Below are positions 12,017 through 44,674 of a DNA stretch of 64,000 nt, piece by piece (the first letter of the stretch is position 1; each line of letters opens with the position of its first letter). The stretch lies in NCBI RefSeq assembly GCF_009914755.1, contig NC_060943.1; one strand, given 5' to 3'. The translations under genes and the position numbers were made by a program. The notes under the pieces are model-generated. The model was not told the origin of the DNA, made no database searches, and saw nothing but the letters and a program-made list of their open reading frames with translations. Source of the stretch: the human T2T-CHM13v2.0 reference genome, Homo sapiens.

Positions 12017-12789
12017 ACGGTGCTGTCACCTCTGCCTGGGCCTCACTGACAGCCTGCAGGGGGCTCTTGGGGACTGGGAGGCTTCAGGGAAGGGGCCTAG
12101 CCTGGGTGGGTTAGGCGGGATGTTTTCCCTGAAACCAAGAACCTGACTGCCTCTTTGGCTGAGCATAGGGCCTCCATGCTTATAGCAGGGTCTCTCAGAG
12201 CCCAAGTATGGACTTTATCCTGTGGACAATGTGGAGCCATGGGAGGTTTTTGAGCAGGAGAGGGACCAGGATTAAGAACGGATTTAAGAGGTACGACTGA
12301 GGCTAAGTGAGAAGCAACCATAGGGGCAGATCCTTTCTTTTGGTCTGGGAGTGTCCCAAGACCGAGGTCCCTGGCCAGTTCAGAACACAAGGATAGAAGG
12401 GTGCAGCTTATACCCTGGCAGGCTCTCAGGAGTTCTGTTTCCTTTCTTGCTAACGTCCCACCCTATGTCTCCCCCTTCCAGTTGATCGCTTTTGTGACCC
12501 CTTTCCCTAACTTCAGGCAGCTCCTATTTTTCCTCTTTTGAGCCCTCTGACTCTGCCCAGGCTGCTTGTCCATCAGCTGCTATCTGAATCCTCCCCCTAC
12601 TCTCTTCTGCTATGTGCCAGGCACTCTCACAAGTGTCAGGGGTTGGGCACGTCTTCACCCTTTCACCTCTAGATTCCTCCTTCATTCCCATCACTGACCC
12701 ATCTTGGGGTGGGGTGCAGTCAGGAACATCCTGTTTGACCCTTGAGATTCAAAGACAGATGACTGGAAACAGAACACCATCCCAAAGGT

Positions 12790-29047: not shown

Positions 29048-29096
<49 letters not shown>

Positions 29097-29941
29097 AAAA
29101 TCATCCTATTAAAAAAATTAGGCAAACTATCTGAATAGACATTTCTCAAAAGAGGAGATACAAATGGCAAATAGATACATTAAAAAATGCTCAACATCAC
29201 TAATCATCCAGGAAATGCAAGTCAAAACCATGGTAAGATATCATCTCACTGCTGCTAACATGTGTAATTCTTTTTATACATTGTTGGATTCGATTTGATA
29301 TTTTGTTGAGGATTTTGCATCTAGGTTTGTGAGCAATATTAATCTGTATAATTTTTTGTTTCTTAATTTCTTCTTTTTTTTCTTCTTTCTCTTTTCTTTG
29401 ATTTCTTGTAATGTCTCTGTCTGTATGTGGCATTAGGGTACCGCTGGCCTCATAAAATGAGTTACAGAATATTCCCCCTGCTTCTGTCTTTCAAAAGACA
29501 CAGAAGAAAATTGGTATAATTTCTTCCTTAAATGTTTGGTAGGATTCATCAGTGAGCCAACTGGGGTCTTGGCTTTCTGTTTTGGAAGGTTATTAATGAT
29601 TGTTTAATAGATATAGGCCTATTTGGATTATCTACTAGCACTTTCCTTTTCTTCCTTTCTTTCCCCTTCTCATATCTTTTGGATAGATGGAAGGTGAATG
29701 ATGGTATATAAATGTGATTCAAAATTATGTAGCTGATAAAAATTGTAACATTGATAGAGAAATATAGGCCCTATATGCATTATTTAAATACCTATATAAT
29801 AAGCATAAAACATGTTTATGCAGTAAGTACAAAGATTAAAGGACAATATGAAAAGTGTAGTTAGGTGAATCTTACAAGTTATTTAGAGAATGTGGAAGGC
29901 TAGTTAAACAGAGTGACATACAGAAAAGAAGACTAGTATTA

Positions 29942-31159
<1,218 letters not shown>

Positions 31160-31161
31160 AC

Positions 31162-31305
31162 TGGCTGGGTATGGTGGCTCATGCCTGTAATCCCAGCATT
31201 TTGAGAGGCCAAGGCGGGAGAATAGGTTGAGGTCTGGAGTTTAAGACCAGCCTGGGCAACAAAGCAAGACTGTATCTTTAAAAAGAAAACAAACAAACAA
31301 ACAAA
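31162..31305 (+). mobile_element. Alu monomer (FLAM/left arm)
   Basis: GGCTGGGTATGGTGGCTCATGCCTGTAATCCCAGC with (AAAC)n tail. Confidence 0.8.
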
Positions 31306-32177
31306 AAGGAAATACCTGAGACAGGATAATTTATAAAGAAAAGAGGTTTAATTGAATCATGACTCTGTAGGCTGTACGGGAAACATAGTGGCATCTGGTT
31401 CTGAGGAGCCCTCAGGGAGCTCTGACTCATGTTAGAAGGCAAAGCAGGAGCAGGCACATCACATGGCATAAGCAGGAGCTAGAGAGCAGGGGCAGGTGCA
31501 ACACACTTTTAAATGACCAGATCTTGTAAGAACTCACTAACCCGAAGGCTGCACCAAGCCATGAGGGATCTGCCCCCATGATCCAAACACCTCCCACCAG
31601 GCACCACATGTAGCACTGGGGATTACAATTCAACATGAGATTTGGGCAGGGACACAGACCCAAACCATATCAACCTCTAATGCCAGTAGAACCACTGACT
31701 AGCTTCAGGATCTCAAGAAAGGATTTTAAAGCTCAAATAGTCCCAGCACTGTAATAATTACAGGAGAAAATGTAACTACAATGTTTGGAAGTAGCGTCTA
31801 CTCAATAATTGTGGTTCTCTGTTCTTGTCCAATCCTATGTTTAATATAAAAACTCAACTAAAGGTAAGTAAAAGCACTGGGGAATGACCTTGCCATGTGG
31901 TATTAAGGAGAAGATTCTCAAGCACAACTGCCTCAGTTGAAATTACCAAATCTGCATATAGAAGGAAGATGTGAGATTTTTTATTCAAAGTTAACTAGAA
32001 ACCCAGCATGAGGCAGATGGCTGGGAGCAGTCCAGGGAGTGTCCAAGATCTGACACAGAAAATCATGTTCGGAGGGGAGGCTTGTTGCTCATTCCCTTTT
32101 GTGTCCAGCTGCCTGGGTTCCCTTCTCCACCGTTTTATTTGATAATAAGCTATCTGGAGAACTTGCTGAGCCCAGTG

Positions 32178-34702
32178 CTGAGCCAAGAAGAGAAATATGT
32201 GAGCTTTGAAGGTGCAGTTTCATTTCGAGGAATAGAGAATATCTGTTCAAAGTTGGGGCAGTTCAGAGCAGAGTGAGCTGCAAACTGTTGTGCAGGTATG
32301 GGGCTGGAAGGCTTCATACAACCTCATAGTCCTGGGACCCAAACTTTTATTCAGACCATGGAAGCAGGTGTGACAAGAGTTGGGCAAGGCAGACCTTTAA
32401 TCCACCCTGATAGGCTGGAGTGTGGGCTTATGGCATTTCTCCTTTGACCCAATTAACCTCCACTCCCAATGTATCTCTGTGCAGAAGGCTCAGCTAGGTG
32501 TGTCAGACATTGTAAATCCTCAACATAAATTATAATTTAACCTAGAATACAGAGACTATGTAGCAGGAGGAGAGGAAATGTGGAGATATTAATCTCTTCT
32601 CCCTTATCTGAAAGGAACCTAGCGTAAGAAATTTCATGCTTAATAGGCCAAAGAGTAAATCAGAAAACTCCATGGGTGATGGTATGCTCATGGTGGTGGT
32701 GGTGGTGGTGGGGAATTCTTTGCCCTGTGACCTCCCTTGGATTAATTTGTCCCCAGCACAATGGGAAAAAACATTTAATCCTCGGAGTTTTTAAAATTTA
32801 TTTATTTATTTTTTTTGCCTGAGAGTGACTCTGATCCTGTTTCTGACGGTCATGTTCGTCAGCATTGTAGTGAGTAAGTCACTGGCCTTGTAGCATCTGG
32901 AGTGATGGGAGTGATCCAAGATCCCCAGTTCCCATGTCACAAATGAGGATCCCACATATCTGGGGCAGCGATGGAAAAGGAGGCATGGCTGGAGGGTTAG
33001 GGTAGGCTAATTGCTGCTGGGATGGGAGAGGATGCAGAGGGAGCTGTGTCCCTCCTCTCTATCCCCAGCTTTGGAGGAATCACGTGTGCTTTGTCAGCTG
33101 AAGTTGGAGCAACATTCAATGGTGAGTGCCCTCTTACAAACAGCTCAATGTGAACATAATGAGAACACCAGGGTCTGCTGGAGGCAGAGTGGCCTGGTGG
33201 TAAGAACTCAGGCTCTGGGGTCAGGCAGAGCTGGTTCAAGTCCTGGCTCTGCATCTTCTAAGATGCACACCTCTTGGTTAGAGCCTTAACCTCACCAAAC
33301 CTCAGTTGCACCATGTTCACAGTATCCCACCTCTGAGGCTGCTGTTGGCAGTAATGAGATGATGTGGACAGTCTCAAGAGGTGGCACATGGTCACCTCTA
33401 GGAGGAAGGGCATCAGGTGTGTGTAGAATGTAGTGTGGGCTTGGGGCAGGAAGTGAGGGAGTGGTGAGAGATGAAGAGAGGTGAGGAGAACTTCTAGAAT
33501 TAAAGGAAGCTACTCTTGTTACAAAAGCAGCTGACAGGCTGTATTAGGGATCTCTAGAGGGACAGAAGTAATAGGATAGATGTATATATAAAGGAGAGTT
33601 TATTAAGGGATATTAACTCACACAATTATAAAGTCCCACAATAGGCCGTCTGCAAGCTTAGGACCAAAGAAGCCAGACCTAGTCCCAAAGCTGAAGAACT
33701 TGGAGTCCGATGTTCAAGGGCAGGAAGCATCCAGCATGGGAGAAAGATGTAGGCTGGGAGGCTAAGCCAGTCTAATCTCTCCACATTCTTCTGTCTGCGT
33801 TTTATTCTGGCCACTCTGACAGCTGGTTAGATGGTGCCCACCTGGATTGAGGGTGGGTCTGCCTCTCCCAGTCCACTGACTCAAATGTTAATCTCCTTTG
33901 GCAACACCCTCACAGACACAACCAGGACCAATACTTTGCATCCTTCAATCCAATCAAGTTGACACTCAGTATTAACCGTCACAAAGGCCCACAGAGCTGG
34001 ACCCCATCCCAGACGCTGACTGCATGGCCCTCTCCTACCTCTGAGGTTGTCTTGACCACCTCACCCTCAAAACCCCTAGAGTCAGCCACCGCAGTGCAGC
34101 TGAGCTCACTGGGGGTGCTTCTGGCGTTCTGAGTCAGGGGATAGCGGGCCTGATGTCAGGGGTGAGGAGAGCTGGTCCTGGGGGCAGTGTGCTGCAGTGG
34201 GAGCTGGACACATCCCCTGATCCTTGGGGGCTGAAACAGGAGCTGGAAGGAGCCTGTGTCAAAACATGGACCTGGGAGCGTTTCCAAGTTTAGAGAAGCC
34301 TGGAGCCCGCTTGAGGACTGGGGATCAGGCATTTGACCTCCTCCACCACCCAGTAGCCTCTGAGACACTGACATAGCTGCGGGAAGAGCTAAGTAGCAAT
34401 AATGAGCATAATTTGGAGACTCAGGAGACACCACCCTAGGGACCCAGGTCGTCCTCACCGGCCCCTGACAGCTCCTTGCTTGGGTCTCCCAGTGACCTAG
34501 GAACAGGCTGATGTGAAGTGCAACCCAGACTTCATCCTGTGCCAAGTATTCTGGGAAGTGAGAGGAGGGTGCAGGGGTCATAGAGGGTCTGCCTCATTCA
34601 GCACCAGGGACAGCGATCGACCCCGGACTCCTTGGCCTCTGTGGCTGCAGGGACACTGGCTCAGGTGCATCCCATACACTTCTGCAGTTCAGAGTCCAAG
34701 GC
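32178..34702 (+). pseudogene. Unprocessed pseudogene relic of a type II membrane C-type-lectin-like gene (cytoplasmic, TM and neck exons)
   Basis: Six candidate exons with splice sites: ~32178-32295, 32757-32873 (TM, VTLILFLTVMFVSIVV), 33069-33121, 34354-34401, 34493-34557, 34651-34702. They carry stops and frameshifts. No lectin-domain exon was found. Confidence 0.5.
33540..33983 (-). mobile_element. MLT2A (HERV-L) solo LTR
   Basis: Closely similar to 28305-28756; TG...CA ends; TSD CAGGC/AAGGC. Confidence 0.88.
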
Positions 34703-36279
34703 GTGAGCACCTTGCAGGGTCCCACAGAGTGGGGGCTTGGGAGGAAAGATGACACCATGGACTTGAGCAGAGCATGAGTTGATGAGGACAGGACCACAGC
34801 TAGGATATATAGCAAATGTCCAGTCCAGAAACCATGGAACCAGAGTTAAGGAAGAAGCATTGTGCTGAAGGAAGGCAAATGTACTCAAGAATCCCCCAGA
34901 AGGATGGAGTGAAGTTCTGGTAAAGGGAATGGAAATCAAGGAAAACTCAAAGACAGAAGGGAGCCAGAATATGGGTGCCATTGAATGTCCTGCTGAGGAA
35001 TTAGGACTAAATCTTCTAGACAGTGTTTCTGCCAGTGTGCCCTTTGGGATGCTAGACACCTCAGATAATATATATTCAGAGGACTCTGGATATCACTAAG
35101 CTTGGCAAAATGACACATTGTCCATTATCCTCCTAAAAATTCACAATTATTATAACATATTAAAAGTATTATGACTCCCTGCAGTAAAGAACTTCCTGTT
35201 TCGTATTGCTTGATCCATAATTTAGACACACACACAGACACACACACTTGCAATTTAAAAAAATAACAGTAGGCATGACAATAGGAGAAATGACAGCCAG
35301 TTTGGTTTATGCCAAAATTAGACCCTTGAGGCAGCTGAGAAATTGTCTTGTTGGAAAACCTCTCCAAGCTCCAGAAAGGGGAATTTACAAGGTCTCAAGT
35401 ATTCTCAAAGCCCAAAAAGAGTTTCATGTGAAAGTTGAAGCTGAGCCATCTTTCCACTTGTAAATGTCCTTCAGGTACCATCTCCTGAGGTCAGTGCAAT
35501 AATAGTCACCATCTTTAGTTGGAGTGATGAAATTCTGCCTAAGAAAAAGATATGGTCAAGAGATATGTGGGACCATAGCTAAGACCAGGGGTTGGGTCGT
35601 CTTCTAAAAAGAACAAGACACAGTGGACCCCACAGACAGGGGCCATTGTCAATGTCACAGTTGAATGTACTGGCTGAATGCTCTGGCTTGACATCCATCA
35701 GAACCATTATTAAGGCGTATGTGATCATTCAACTCAGACACATATGACACTCAAGCACCTTGTCTGAAAATGGAGAAAACAATGACATTCGCCTCCAAGG
35801 CTCAGTGAAGAAATAAGGGCACAGTGTAGTGCCTAGCTGAGTGTGGGATAAGTGGTAATTAAGAATATTATTAAATGGTATTGATAAAAAGGTAAGGAGT
35901 TTGGCTCTACCCAGTATAAATGGTTAGGTGAATCAACTAGTCCACTGACATATATGGAGTCCTGCTGAGTGTCAACTCAAGTTCCAGGCACTATGGACTC
36001 AAAGGTGAGTCAGATCAAGCCCTTGTCCCTGGAAGATTGCTCATGTGTGGGGTGATGCACCTGTGATCTGACAGCACAGTCCAGAGTTGCATCCTGAAAT
36101 GAAAGCAGGTGCTGTTAACATTAGCCTCCCAATTGGCAGATGGAGGTGCAGAGAGATCAATTCACTTTACCAAAGCCACACAGCCAGGAAGTGGATGAGC
36201 CAGGATTTGAACCTTAGTCTGTCTGAGATGAGTCAGTGCTGTGAAGCAAGGAGCTATCCAGGCTATGCTACAAGTCTCC

Positions 36280-36925
36280 CCTTAATCATTAATCTGTGTT
36301 TAAGAAACTGAAGAGAAACAAACAATTCGCAATGGTGATCAGCTGGTCTCTGTTTAAAGAAGAAAACAAGCCCCTGGAGCATTCAACCGAAGTGATGTCA
36401 TGGGGTCTCCAAACCAGGCAATTAGTAAAATTTATCTGAACCTGCCACCTCCAGCCCTGCTCTAAAGCTCTCAGTGCACATCGTTCAAAGCCCCCAGGTA
36501 TCTTTTCTGGAGGACACAGCAGAGAAGAACATGGTTAGAGCCTTGATTGGTATTAAAGATCCCAATGGGACAACTGTCTGCACAACTCGCCAAACTCCAC
36601 TGCATAACAATCCCCAGGAAGCCAATTCTAAGTTTTGATAGTGAACAAGCCATGGGATTTTCACTAACACCTGGGGACTCATTAAAAGTTGACACACAAT
36701 TTCCATCTCCACTTCATTTTTTTTCTTTTTTTTTTTTTTTGCAAATGAAAGGGTCTCTAAGGATCAGCTACAGAGCTGCAGGGAGGTTAGGTTTGAATGC
36801 ATAGCTCAGGGATTAAGTGGAGACAGAAACACGGCTCATCTTACTCTGGGGAAATGGTCCCAGAGAGTTTTCCATTTAGCCTCAGGTCCAAACTTAGGTG
36901 TCTGATTAGCAGCAAGAGACATAGG
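36280..36925. promoter_or_regulatory. Candidate olfactory-receptor enhancer or distal promoter (Lhx2 homeodomain plus Ebf/O-E motif cluster)
   Basis: Composite AACTTTTAATGAGTCCCCAGG (minus, 36670-36690), plus several TAAT(G/T/C) and CCC(C)AG(G/A) sites in non-repeat DNA 8 kb upstream of OR10H2. Confidence 0.55.
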
Positions 36926-38509
36926 TAGGCATTGGAAGTGGCTCTTTCTTCCCCAAGACACTATAGTCCCAGAGCTCCACATAGCCAAATGTTACAGAAA
37001 GCACCACAGCATCTTGGACATCAGAACCAAAGTATGCAAAGTACTTGGTGCCAAGAGTGGCCCCTGTGAGCATTTTGTGCTGCCGGATGGGATGGAGGGT
37101 AAGGTCTCCAGAGCTCCGAGGTGGGCCAGGCTTCTGCTTCCTCCATCCTAATACTTACCACACTCTCCTTATTATATAAATGACTTGTTCAATACCTACT
37201 ATCTTTCTCTACTCAACGTTCCCCCCAAGAAGATAAGGCCACACTGGATTTGCCCAACCTTGTGTTCTCACTGCTTGGCACCTAATAGATGCTCAATAAA
37301 TACTCGCAGAGAAAACAAACAAATGACTCTCTCATTGCAACCCCATTCCATGTCTGTGAGTTGCAAAACCCTTCTAAAATGTGGATGGCTATTCTCCAGT
37401 TAATCTGAAATTCATTTTGTAGATGTAGTTGACATCATTTGAACCCACCTGCCCTTATGTGTGTATCCCCTGTGTCAACTCAGGTCTGATGGATTATGGG
37501 GAAAGGTCCTTTGGATGCAAACCTCTGCCTGTCTTTTAGGCTCCTTGAGCCACTCCTCACTCCTAGCTTCCCAAGGCCCCTTCCATATTGGCCTTCTTCT
37601 GTTCCTTGGATGAGCAGTCATTTTCCCACCCTAAGTCCTTTGCACATGCCCTTCCCTCTGCTTGGTGCACAACCTTTCCTCTCCCTCTGCAGAATGACTC
37701 AAATGAAGTGCTACCTCCTCCGTGAAGTTCTCTCCTATCAGCCTGTCCTGCTTTCTGAGGATTCGTTTGCCTACTCCTGTAGCCACTACCATCCCTTCCT
37801 TATGCTCCTCCTGCTCTTGTCTGAAATTCAGTTATTCATCATCTACCTTCTCTCCTCCACTGTAAAGTCCACAAGAACAGGCTCTAAGTCTGCACTGGCC
37901 ATTGCAGTGTCCACAGCTCCTGGCTCAGTGATGAGCTCCAATGCTCTGGATACATCTGTTAAGTGTGTGGTAGCTGAGGCTGAACTTCCTCTGAGCTGGA
38001 GATAAGAGTTATCTCATGCACAGTCTTTAGGGGTTGAGGCTGATCACTCTCATCATCTTAAGCAGCCAGTGTGGCTCTTTCTATTTCTCCCTGTTACCAA
38101 AGAGCAGATCAAGCATGAGGTTTCCTGTTTCTACTAATATTTATTGTCAGGCAGTGCTTATCTCAGATGGAGGAGACCTCTTGAGCAAGAAGTTGACCAA
38201 GGCATTGAAGAGCCCTTCAACCCAACTCAGCCCTCCGATCTTTAGTGAAAATGTTATCCTATGAATATTTATGACACACCTAATATGTGCTAGAATGGTG
38301 ACTGCGACCTGGATTCCACCTCTAAGAGCTTCTGGGCAAAGAAGGGAGACAGACCAGTGCATCAGTCATTCAGATACCGCAAGATAAATGCAATGAAAAT
38401 GCTGCAGGCTCCTGCTTACAGCCCTTTTCCCTTCTCTGAAACTCATTGAGGTGAAAAGATCCAAAAAAGGAATTCATCTAGAATAAATTACCATTAATAC
38501 TAAAGAGAA

Positions 38510-39210
38510 CCTGCGTGGCTTGTTTCACTTGACACAATGTCTTCTAGGTTCATCCATGTTGTCGTGAATGAGAGGATTTCCTTCTTTTTCAAGGCTGAAT
38601 AGTATTCCATGTGTATTTATTACCTCATCCATTTATCCGTTGATGGACACTTAGGTTGATTCCATCTCTTGACTTTTGTGAATAGTGCTGCAATGAATGT
38701 GGGAGTGAAGATATCTCTTTAATATACTGATTTCATTTCCTTTGGGTATATACTATACCCAGATTATATGATATGCTGGATATTATATGCTGGATTATAT
38801 GATAATTCCATTTTTAATTTTCTGAGGAACCTCTATACTGTTTTTTATAATGGCTGTACTCATCTACAATCCCACCTACAGTTTACAAGAGTTCCCTTTT
38901 CTTCACATTCTTGCCAACATTTTTTTTATCTTTCATCTTTTTGATGTTGGTCAAAGAACATAAAATTTCAGTTAGACAGGAAGACCAAGAGATCTAGTGC
39001 ATCATGATGACTATAATTAATAACAATCTATTGTATATTTGAAAATTAACGAGAGTAGATTTTGAGTATTGCCATCACAGAAAAGAATGATAACTATGTG
39101 GGATAATGCACATGTTAACAGTCTTGAATGAACCATTCCGCAGTGTATACAGATATCCAAACGTCATGTTGTACAGCATAAATACATACACATTTTGCCA
39201 ATTAAAAAAA
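38510..39210. mobile_element. L1M fragments (antisense, then sense 3' end)
   Basis: L1M 3'UTR motifs in both orientations. Confidence 0.65.
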
Positions 39211-44120: not shown

Positions 44121-44674
44121 ATTTTCCAGGGGAGCAATGAGGCTCAGAGAGGGGAAGCAACCTGCCCTGCATCTCACAGCTAGAAAGCAGTGGTGCCGAG
44201 AATTAAACAGAGTCTGGACGTTTCCATGACATAGGGAAGAGATGACTTCCAGCTGAAGGTGGCAATCAGGGAGCAGCTTGCTCATAAAATTCAGGTAGGA
44301 TTTGGACCCATAAAGATAGGGAAAAGCATGAAAAGACCAGCATGAACAAAGGCAGAAAAGCAAGGTGTAGGTGGTGGTGCATGGATCTAATAATCGTGAT
44401 GGCAATAACAATAGCAGAATAATTATTACTATCAACATTTATAATTTATTAAATTCTTACTTTGTGTCAGGACCTGCACAAAGCACTTAAGGTGAGTGAT
44501 CTTATTTAAACTTCAATACATTAGTATTAATGCCTTTCTGCAGATGGAGTAACCATGGCTTGGACAGGTGAAGGAGCGCTCTCAGATGTCCTCCCAGGCA
44601 GGAATCACTAGACACCCCCATGCTCCTAACCACTGGGTCTTCTTTCCTCTCTTCCCCAACTAGGGGTGGCCGTC

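What the first reader, a model, noticed from the sequence alone, without database searches (positions are those of the whole stretch)
32178..34702. Fossil multi-exon type II C-type-lectin-like gene between CYP4F12 and OR10H2
Seen: an ordered series of short segments with splice sites that join mostly in phase 1. Exon A (~32178-32295): LSQEEKYVSFEGAVSFRGIENICSKLGQFRAE*AANCCA, donor CAG|GTATGG. Exon B (32757-32873): QWEK..HLILGVF..CLRVTLILFLTVMFVSIVV, a TM helix with donor A|GTAAGT, disrupted by a TTTA expansion. Exon C (33069-33121): TLEESRVLCQLKLEQHS, donor G|GTGAGT. Exon D (34354-34401, 48 nt): VASETLT*LREELSSN, donor mutated to ATGAGC. Exon E (34493-34557): T*EQADVKCNPDFILCQVFWE. Exon F (34651-34702): TLAQVH..TLLQFRVQG. 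The stops are TAG/TGA, one transition from CAG/CGA. Knowledge: a short Tyr-containing cytoplasmic exon, a TM exon and several ~50-65-nt helical neck exons is the architecture of FCER2/CD209/CLEC4G/CLEC17A-type lectins. From memory, a CLEC4O pseudogene lies elsewhere in this cluster. Inference: a decayed, possibly unannotated lectin-receptor gene that may be intact in other mammals. No carbohydrate-recognition exon was found, so the family is inferred from architecture only.
Basis: partly seen in the sequence, partly recalled or inferred. Interest (0 to 1): 0.8.

Follow-up and report, generated by a model that had tools for sequence, protein, structure and literature searches.

The report
Truncated lectin pseudogene copy near CYP4F12
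The stretch is a dead, unannotated front half (start, membrane-anchor and stalk exons, no sugar-binding domain) of a C-type lectin receptor gene, an old duplicate of the known pseudogene CLEC4OP that was copied along with the neighbouring CYP4F genes; it is ordinary genomic debris.

Summary
The lectin reading holds, through CLEC4OP, the lectin pseudogene 136 kb away.

- **Homology.** Profile DNA searches in both directions give three colinear, same-strand matches between the window and the 5' half of CLEC4OP (E 5e-27, 2e-6, 3.5e-4). A reversed-window control gave none.
- **Flank.** Window 36105-38194 matches only the 3' flank of CLEC4OP.
- **Exons.** B (transmembrane), C, D and E align with CLEC4OP exon-like segments at matching splice sites. 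E corresponds to the CLEC4OP exon that matches CLEC4G exon 6.
- **Corrections.** Exon A is misplaced: the homologous first exon is 32265-32367, with an ATG at 32298. Exon F has no support.
- **Missing part.** No lectin-domain exon exists in the window.
- **Other copies.** Fragments lie downstream of other CYP4F genes. Lesions shared with one copy suggest the gene was dead before those duplications.
- **Annotation.** RefSeq annotates nothing here.

Verdict: a new member of a known kind, of low interest. Whether an intact version exists in other mammals could not be tested.

The parts
31867..32264 (+). 5' flank (promoter-equivalent), the best-conserved block of the unit.
   Evidence: nhmmer matches window 31864/31867-32400/32405 to chr19:15993595-15993011(-), E 7e-27 and 5e-27. 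The same CLEC4OP piece matches P1, P2 and P3 at E 1e-10 to 2e-28. In exon A the paralogues carry indels that are not multiples of three. The homologous CLEC4OP stretch overlaps a RefSeq 'silencer' element, 15993113-15993407.
32265..32367 (+). Counterpart of CLEC4OP exon 1 (NR_171052). The ATG is at 32298-32300. The frame is open for 70 nt and ends in phase 1 at donor GT 32368-32369.
   Evidence: Pairwise alignment to 15993158-15993050, with the donors aligned. The open frame MGLEGF...TMEA appears. CLEC4OP exon 1 runs 88 nt from its ATG, also phase 1. The ATG and the donor GT are kept in P2 and P3; in P1 the fragment alignment shows the donor GT, and the ATG lies in the adjoining piece.
32757..32873 (+). 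It is 117 nt and reads in one frame in phase 1. One TAA (32792-32794) sits inside a T-rich/TTTA tract. The donor is GTAAGT.
   Evidence: It aligns with an unannotated hydrophobic exon of CLEC4OP ending at 15991950 before GTAAGG. That exon is split by an Alu flanked by a target-site duplication. nhmmer gives 32808/32812-33133 ~ 15992021-15991687, E 4e-4 and 2e-6. P2 lacks the T-rich tract. CLEC4G exon 2 is 111 nt and FCER2 exon 2 is 114 nt.
33069..33121 (+). P2 is also 53 nt.
   Evidence: Acceptor and donor align with a 68-nt exon-like segment of CLEC4OP, 15991766-15991699. It lies inside the nhmmer hit. CLEC4G and FCER2 exon 3 are 54 nt.
33539..33984 (.). Interspersed repeat of about 445 bp inserted in intron 3, only partly masked in the annotation. 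It is not part of the gene.
   Evidence: Among the 40 of 5986 candidates scored, 35 copies elsewhere in the genome were 86-91% identical. It is absent from the homologous position in P2. Masked stretches are 33549-33660 and 33825-33979. The family name (MaLR-type LTR) is my recollection only.
34354..34401 (+). A TAG at 34374-34376 is shared with P2. The donor is AT in the window.
   Evidence: In the three-way alignment, acceptor and donor line up with a 36-nt exon-like segment of CLEC4OP, 15991374-15991339, and with P2, whose donor is GT. The P2-CLEC4OP nhmmer hit covers D and E, E 2.4e-8.
34493..34557 (+). The TAG at 34498-34500 is specific to the window. The exon is 25 nt shorter than its 90-nt counterpart.
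   Evidence: nhmmer gives 34460/34463-34562/34611 ~ CLEC4OP 15991266-15991162, E 4e-3 and 3.5e-4. The counterpart, 15991231-15991142, lies inside RefSeq exon 15991142-15991263 and matches CLEC4G residues 130-159, exon 6, E 8e-4. P2 has CAG and CLEC4OP has CCG at the stop.
34651..34702 (+). It is part of a duplicated post-exon-E segment (34558-34745).
   Evidence: It is present in P2a, P2b and P4 as part of the same segment. It has no counterpart in CLEC4OP. Its open frame ranks 2283 of 5031 against a profile of lectin-domain exon 1.
34745..36104 (.). Spacer with no copy elsewhere in the genome. It occupies the place where CLEC4OP has 14.9 kb holding its three lectin-domain exons.
   Evidence: The own-genome search found nothing for this part. 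Homology with P2a, P2b and P4 ends at about 34745. tblastn and a profile search found no lectin domain.
36105..38194 (+). 3' flank, paralogous to the 3' flank of CLEC4OP.
   Evidence: Four colinear pieces are 73-78% identical to chr19:15972686-15976286(-), and no other copy exists in the genome. nhmmer gives E 1e-35.

Best explanation
Window 31867-34745 is a non-functional 5' fragment of a type II transmembrane C-type lectin gene of the CLEC4O/CLEC4G (LSECtin-like) kind. It holds the promoter region, the first coding exon, the transmembrane exon and three stalk exons.

The fragment is a paralogue of the 5' half of the annotated pseudogene CLEC4OP. It sits in the same relative place: downstream of a CYP4F gene, on the same strand, and followed by the same 3' flank. 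The three exons for the carbohydrate-recognition domain are gone, and a 1.4-kb spacer stands where they should be.

The fragment belongs to a small family of copies carried passively in the CYP4F duplication units:
- P1 lies upstream of CYP4F2.
- P2 lies downstream of the CYP4F2-like pseudogene.
- P3 lies downstream of CYP4F24P.
- P2b and P4 are shorter pieces.

The window shares frame-breaking features with P2: a 53-nt exon C, a 65-nt exon E and a TAG in exon D. That suggests the gene was already dead before those duplications.

Shown here: homology, colinearity, the lesions and the absence of the lectin domain. Inferred: the order of events, the deletion, and the lack of present function.
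For: **Homology to CLEC4OP.** nhmmer with the window as query against 30 kb around CLEC4OP gave colinear minus-strand hits at E 7e-27, 4e-4, 4e-3 and 1e-35. The reciprocal search of CLEC4OP 5' pieces against the whole 64-kb window gave 31867-32400 (5e-27), 32812-33133 (2e-6) and 34463-34611 (3.5e-4). All were on the + strand and in order. The reversed window gave 0 hits.

**Flank and gene structure.** The 3' flank 36105-38194 is 73-78% identical to the CLEC4OP 3' flank only. Intron lengths match: 389/391, 195/183 and 91/107. Splice sites of exon 1, TM, C, D and E align.

**CLEC4OP is itself a lectin relic.** CLEC4G matches its stalk exon and two lectin-domain exons at E 8e-4, 7e-8 and 5e-7. 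Its lectin-domain exon 1 finds CLEC4G exon 7 as its best genome-wide relative (51% identity, E 6e-6).

**Family architecture.** Every stalk and TM exon of CLEC4G, FCER2 and CLEC17A is entered in phase 1. The window's first exon ends in phase 1.

**Not a dispersed repeat.** The DNA matches only cluster copies, with 7 of 7 and 3 of 3 candidates scored.

**Shared lesions with P2** are shown.
Against: - Direct protein comparison finds nothing in the fossil. tblastn with CLEC4G, CD209, FCER2, CLEC4M and CLEC17A had its best E of 0.12 elsewhere in the window, and only E 1.9-3.2 in the fossil.
- Exon peptides of those genes and of CLEC4OP do not rank the fossil's frames first.
- Pfam finds nothing.
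- The link therefore rests on DNA-level homology to one intermediate, CLEC4OP.
- Exons are no better conserved than introns between the window and CLEC4OP: 60-71% against 50-69%, by a crude measure.
- The 5' part is only about 58% identical to CLEC4OP (K2P 0.62), while the 3' flank is 73-78% identical. Simple whole-locus duplication does not explain this.
- The TM, C-like and D-like exons of CLEC4OP are not annotated by RefSeq. I identified them from sequence alone.
Confidence: 0.85

Rival explanations
1. The fossil does not descend from the same gene copy as CLEC4OP. It comes from a second, older lectin paralogue that once lay beside it. A deletion then removed that gene's 3' half, together with the neighbouring CLEC4O copy, and joined its 5' half to the CLEC4O-type 3' flank.
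For: Divergence changes sharply along the locus. The 5' gene part is 58% identical to CLEC4OP (K2P 0.62), against 76-90% among P1, P2, P3 and the window. The 3' flank is 73-78% identical, like the CYP4F 3' flanks (72-73%). The window also departs from P2a, P2b and P4 at about 34745 and has a unique 1.4-kb spacer.
Against: No remnant of a second lectin domain turned up. None was found in the window, in the 40 kb fetched around P1-P3, or in the 30 kb of extra flanks searched. A genome-wide search with CLEC4OP lectin-domain exon 1 found no second copy in the cluster either. No second 5' unit lies upstream of CLEC4OP. Faster change in the GC-rich CLEC4OP 5' region could give the same picture, and the CLEC4OP branch is long in the tree.
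Confidence: 0.2
2. The block still has a non-coding role, as a promoter or enhancer-like element or as the start of an unannotated transcript, rather than being inert debris.
For: The 5' flank plus exon 1 is the best-conserved block among all five copies. Its CLEC4OP counterpart is the start of a RefSeq transcript and overlaps an annotated silencer element. Its P1 counterpart lies 0.44-3.7 kb upstream of the CYP4F2 start and is 94% identical to the window over 32359-32976, against 85-88% for neighbouring pieces.
Against: RefSeq lists no transcript or functional element at the window copy, at P2 or at P3. No expression or chromatin data were available here. The higher identity can come from gene conversion.
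Confidence: 0.1
3. The series of exon-like segments is a chance pattern in neutral intergenic DNA and has no gene ancestry.
For: No protein-level match was found. Two of the six segments (A, F) fail.
Against: There are colinear, significant DNA matches to the CLEC4OP exons with aligned splice sites and matching intron lengths, and the reversed control was empty.
Confidence: 0.03

Closest known systems
CLEC4OP (C-type lectin domain family 4 member O, pseudogene; chr19:15980190-15993158, minus strand)
   Same: It has the same exon order for the parts both hold: 5' flank, first exon ending in phase 1, transmembrane exon and stalk exons. Splice positions, intron lengths and the 3' flank also match. 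Both lie downstream of a CYP4F gene on its strand, and both are disabled.
   Different: CLEC4OP keeps three lectin-domain exons and is transcribed according to RefSeq. The window copy has none and is unannotated. Identity over the gene part is only about 58%. CLEC4OP's transmembrane exon is split by an Alu, whereas the window's carries a T-rich expansion and a stop.
CLEC4G (LSECtin), the closest intact human relative of CLEC4OP
   Same: Architecture of coding exons: 55, 111, 54, 63, 105 and 90 nt, then three lectin-domain exons. All the N-terminal introns are in phase 1. Its 90-nt exon 6 matches the CLEC4OP exon that aligns with the window's exon E.
   Different: No direct DNA or protein match to the window was found. 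The window's exon sizes are 70 (from the ATG), 117, 53, 48 and 65 nt, and it has no lectin domain.
FCER2 (CD23), CD209/CLEC4M and CLEC17A
   Different: There is no detectable sequence similarity to the window. They lie 1-8 Mb away on chr19.
Paralogous fragments P1, P2, P3, P2b and P4 in the CYP4F cluster (unannotated)
   Same: They come from the same unit. P1 (chr19:16029753-16034915) is 85-94% identical. P3 (15875728-15876772) is 76% identical. P2b (16089961-16090150) and P4 (15757051-15757303) hold only the post-exon-E piece.
   Different: P1 stops after the transmembrane exon, 443 bp from the CYP4F2 start. P3 stops before the transmembrane exon. None has a lectin domain. Only the window copy is followed by the CLEC4OP-type 3' flank.

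Membership tests
Type II transmembrane C-type lectin receptors of the CLEC4G/FCER2/CD209/CLEC4O group | A C-type lectin-like (carbohydrate-recognition) domain encoded by three 3' exons | tested here: not met
   tblastn of five family proteins against the window gave a best E of 0.12, at an unrelated place. A profile of lectin-domain exon 1 gave a best E of 1.5 among 5031 frames of the window and P2. The positive control detected all the expected CLEC4OP exons. The domain is absent, so this is a gene fragment and not a member in the protein sense.
Type II transmembrane C-type lectin receptors of the CLEC4G/FCER2/CD209/CLEC4O group | Short N-terminal cytoplasmic exon followed by a single exon that encodes the transmembrane helix, joined in phase 1 | tested here: met
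   The frame is open from the ATG at 32298 to 32367 and ends in phase 1. The 117-nt exon 32757-32873 encodes a hydrophobic stretch before GTAAGT and has one stop. It aligns to the CLEC4OP counterpart.
Type II transmembrane C-type lectin receptors of the CLEC4G/FCER2/CD209/CLEC4O group | Series of short stalk exons whose lengths are multiples of three (phase 1 at both ends) | tested here: inconclusive
   The family pattern is shown. The window's exons are 53, 48 and 65 nt, so only D is a multiple of three. The other two are frame-breaking, as is usual for a pseudogene, and P2 shares both lengths.
CLEC4O lineage (paralogue of CLEC4OP) | Significant, colinear sequence homology to CLEC4OP, including its exons and flanks | tested here: met
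   nhmmer in both directions with an empty reversed control. The 3' flank is 73-78% identical. Splice sites align and intron lengths match.
CLEC4O lineage (paralogue of CLEC4OP) | Protein-level similarity of the translated exons to CLEC4OP or CLEC4G | tested here: not met
   blastp-short of exon peptides against all 3745 stop-free frames of the window did not rank the fossil's frames first. The peptides are short and decayed, so the test is weak.
CLEC4O lineage (paralogue of CLEC4OP) | Orthology to an intact CLEC4O gene in other mammals | not testable with these tools
   No mammalian genomes were on hand. The protein word search accepts only candidates 0.55-1.75 times the query's length, and no stop-free piece here exceeds 93 aa. 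I did not run it.

The most novel reading that the evidence does not exclude
The window fossil and its copies P1-P4 are relics of a second eutherian lectin receptor gene, distinct from CLEC4O. That gene was lost in the human lineage before the CYP4F duplications and may survive intact in some mammals. Its promoter-proximal block has been kept, and in copy P1 it has been taken over as part of the upstream control region of CYP4F2.
Probability: 0.12. Interest if true: 0.45.

Novelty: new member of a known kind. Interest (0 to 1): 0.25.

Why it matters
It adds an unannotated partial paralogue of CLEC4OP to the map, along with at least four sister fragments. It shows that the CYP4F/OR10H duplication units carried a lectin gene relic with them, which helps in reconstructing how this pharmacogenetically important cluster was built.

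It also shows that the 0.44-3.7 kb upstream of CYP4F2 is made of such a relic. Practical consequences are small: no intact gene, no lectin domain and no evidence of function. The main value is a correct annotation, and a demonstration that the architecture-based reading was right.

Tried and rejected
- **Plain blastn against CLEC4OP.** blastn of window 12001-44600 against 30 kb around CLEC4OP gave only Alu and other repeats plus one flank piece. The homology appeared only with nhmmer.
- **Direct protein matches.** tblastn of five intact lectins against the window gave nothing meaningful. The same was true against P1-P3 and against the regions downstream of CYP4F3 and CYP4F8.
- **Exon peptides.** Exon peptides searched against all stop-free frames of the window gave noise only.
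- **Pfam.** A scan of ten pieces gave nothing above threshold. Even the CLEC4OP lectin-domain pieces gave only weak viral C-type-lectin-like hits.
- **Exon F as the start of lectin-domain exon 1.** I considered this because of a loose C..P..W resemblance seen by eye in P2. I rejected it: the profile ranks that frame 2283 of 5031.
- **Exon E ending at 34582 (90 nt).** I considered and dropped this, because the three-way alignment puts the homologous donor at 34557/34558.
- **Exon versus intron conservation.** No excess was visible, and the measure is noisy.
- **Other lectin loci.** nhmmer of the fossil against 72 kb of other lectin loci gave only one hit, to a dispersed repeat in a CLEC4G intron, and it was not colinear.
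- **Literature.** 'CLEC4OP' gave 1 paper and 'CLEC4O' gave 1 paper. 'CLEC4G+CYP4F+pseudogene' gave 3, and 'CYP4F/OR10H/segmental duplication' gave 53 with 10 listed. I saw only the listings and abstract starts. None concerns a lectin relic in this cluster. Supplements were closed.
Full report
**What is in the sequence**

RefSeq annotates nothing between CYP4F12 (which ends at 12059) and OR10H2 (which starts at 44655). Window 31679-38634 is almost free of masked repeats.

**Where CLEC4OP lies**

RefSeq places CLEC4OP at chr19:15980190-15993158 on the minus strand. It lies downstream of CYP4F2/CYP4F36P and on their strand. That is the mirror image of the candidate's position downstream of CYP4F12.

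**First tests, negative**

- Plain blastn between window 12001-44600 and 30 kb around CLEC4OP found only repeats and one flank piece.
- I spliced the annotated coding exons of CLEC4G, CD209, FCER2, CLEC4M and CLEC17A from the reference. tblastn of these proteins against the window gave a best E of 0.12 at an unrelated site, and only E 1.9-3.2 inside the candidate.
- The same proteins did detect CLEC4OP. The stalk exon 15991232-15991143 matched CLEC4G residues 130-159 (E 8e-4). Lectin-domain exons matched at 15986273-15986160 (E 7e-8) and 15980445-15980311 (E 5e-7).

The method therefore works on a decayed gene, and the window has no lectin-domain exon.

**The decisive test**

nhmmer with window 31676-38630 (interspersed repeat left out) against chr19:15976001-16006000 gave four colinear minus-strand hits:

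| Window | CLEC4OP locus | E-value |
|---|---|---|
| 31864-32405 | 15993595-15993011 | 7e-27 |
| 32808-33133 | 15992021-15991687 | 4e-4 |
| 34460-34562 | 15991266-15991162 | 4e-3 |
| 36090-36381 | 15976300-15976014 | 1e-35 |

In the reciprocal search, the CLEC4OP 5' pieces were run against the whole 64-kb window, both strands. Apart from low-scoring repeat hits, they found 31867-32400 (5e-27), 32812-33133 (2e-6) and 34463-34611 (3.5e-4). All were on the + strand and in order. The reversed window gave no hit at E<=1.

Window 36105-38194 is 73-78% identical, in four colinear pieces, to chr19:15972686-15976286(-), the 3' flank of CLEC4OP. It matches nothing else in the genome.

The fossil's own DNA matches only copies within the cluster, with 7 of 7 and 3 of 3 candidates scored. 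The exceptions are two 40-75-bp hits to a dispersed repeat.

**Exon by exon**

- **Exon 1.** CLEC4OP exon 1 (15993158-15993050) aligns with window 32265-32367, and the donors coincide. The window has an ATG at 32298 and an open frame of 70 nt ending in phase 1. CLEC4OP has 88 nt from its ATG, also ending in phase 1.
It lies upstream of exon 1, in promoter or 5' UTR-equivalent DNA. The copies differ there by indels that are not multiples of three.
- **Transmembrane exon.** It aligns with an unannotated hydrophobic exon of CLEC4OP that ends at 15991950 before GTAAGG. An Alu flanked by a target-site duplication splits that exon.
- **Exon C.** It aligns with a 68-nt segment, 15991766-15991699, and both splice sites coincide.
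- **Exon D.** It aligns with a 36-nt segment, 15991374-15991339.
- **Exon E.** It aligns with 15991231-15991142, the 90-nt exon that matches CLEC4G exon 6.
- **Introns.** Lengths match between the window and CLEC4OP: 389/391, 195/183 and 91/107 nt.
- **Splice sites.** Of the nine sites of exons 1 to E, CLEC4OP has nine canonical ones and the window has eight (the exon D donor is AT). P2 has five. These counts are read.
- **Exon F.** It has no CLEC4OP counterpart. A profile of lectin-domain exon 1 ranks its frame 2283 of 5031.

**The family of copies**

- P1, chr19:16029753-16034915(-), corresponds to window 29083-32976 at 85-94% identity. It ends 443 bp from the CYP4F2 start.
- P2, 16095994-16099106(-), corresponds to window 31676-34743 at 75-80% identity.
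- P3, 15875728-15876772(-), corresponds to window 31676-32701 at 76% identity.
- P2b (16089961-16090150) and P4 (15757051-15757303, 1.2 kb after CYP4F8) hold only the segment that follows exon E.

None of these has a lectin domain. A genome-wide search with CLEC4OP lectin-domain exon 1 scored 42 of 42 candidates and found no second copy in the cluster. CLEC4G exon 7 was its best relative.

Over block A, the K2P distance from the window is 0.105 to P1, 0.228 to P2, 0.294 to P3 and 0.62 to CLEC4OP. With neutral rates of about 1-2.2e-9 per site per year (a recalled figure), these values suggest splits of very roughly 25-50, 50-110 and 65-145 million years for P1, P2 and P3.

The window and P2 share the 53-nt exon C, the 65-nt exon E and the TAG in exon D. 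The gene therefore appears to have been dead before they separated. The TAG in exon E is specific to the window: P2 has CAG and CLEC4OP has CCG.

**What argues against, or stays open**

- No protein-level match links the fossil to any lectin.
- Exons are no better conserved than introns between the window and CLEC4OP.
- The gene part is far more diverged from CLEC4OP (58% identity) than the 3' flank is (73-78%).
- The window leaves the P2a/P2b/P4 alignment at about 34745 and has a unique spacer up to 36104.

The locus may therefore be a mosaic, or the fossil may descend from an older tandem paralogue. I could not resolve this.

I could not examine other mammals, GENCODE or expression data. The four literature searches returned nothing on the subject (listings only).

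**Verdict**

This is a real, unannotated, truncated paralogue of the CLEC4OP lectin pseudogene.

Noticed in passing
window 33539-33984: An interspersed repeat of about 445 bp sits in intron 3 of the fossil. Among the 40 of 5986 candidates scored, 35 copies elsewhere were 86-91% identical. The annotation masks only 33549-33660 and 33825-33979. From memory it looks like a MaLR-type LTR. I did not test that with a repeat library.
   Followed up: partly
L014 (chr19:16029753-16033014), upstream of CYP4F2: The 0.44-3.7 kb upstream of the CYP4F2 start consists of copy P1 of the lectin fossil (promoter block, exon 1 and TM exon). The TM-exon piece is 94% identical to window 32359-32976, while the neighbouring pieces are 85-88% identical. 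Gene conversion or constraint are both possible.
   Followed up: partly
window 34745-36104: This 1.4-kb stretch has no copy anywhere else in the genome. It lies exactly where the CLEC4OP locus has its lectin-domain exons. Its origin is unknown.
   Followed up: partly
L002 (chr19:15992024-15992364): An Alu flanked by a target-site duplication of about 11-13 nt splits the unannotated transmembrane exon of CLEC4OP. RefSeq transcripts of CLEC4OP skip the TM, C-like and D-like exons.
   Followed up: partly
L002 (chr19:15993113-15993407): RefSeq annotates a 'silencer' (K562 tiled region) over the CLEC4OP promoter and exon 1. This is the block homologous to window ~32050-32310, and no such element is annotated in the window.
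   Followed up: no
One lies 1.2 kb after the 3' end of CYP4F8. A duplication breakpoint may therefore lie just after exon E.
   Followed up: partly
window 32690-32712 and 32790-32816: A (TGG)n microsatellite sits in intron 1. A TTTA/T-rich tract sits inside the TM exon. P1 has a plain poly-T there and P2 has neither.
   Followed up: partly
L014 (chr19:16033499-16034466): A POLRMT pseudogene, which RefSeq annotates on both strands, is inserted in copy P1 at the point corresponding to window ~29530-29542.
   Followed up: no
window 37490-38002 (+): A 171-codon stop-free frame, the longest in 31.7-38.7 kb, lies in the CLEC4OP-type 3' flank. It was not examined and is probably chance.
   Followed up: no
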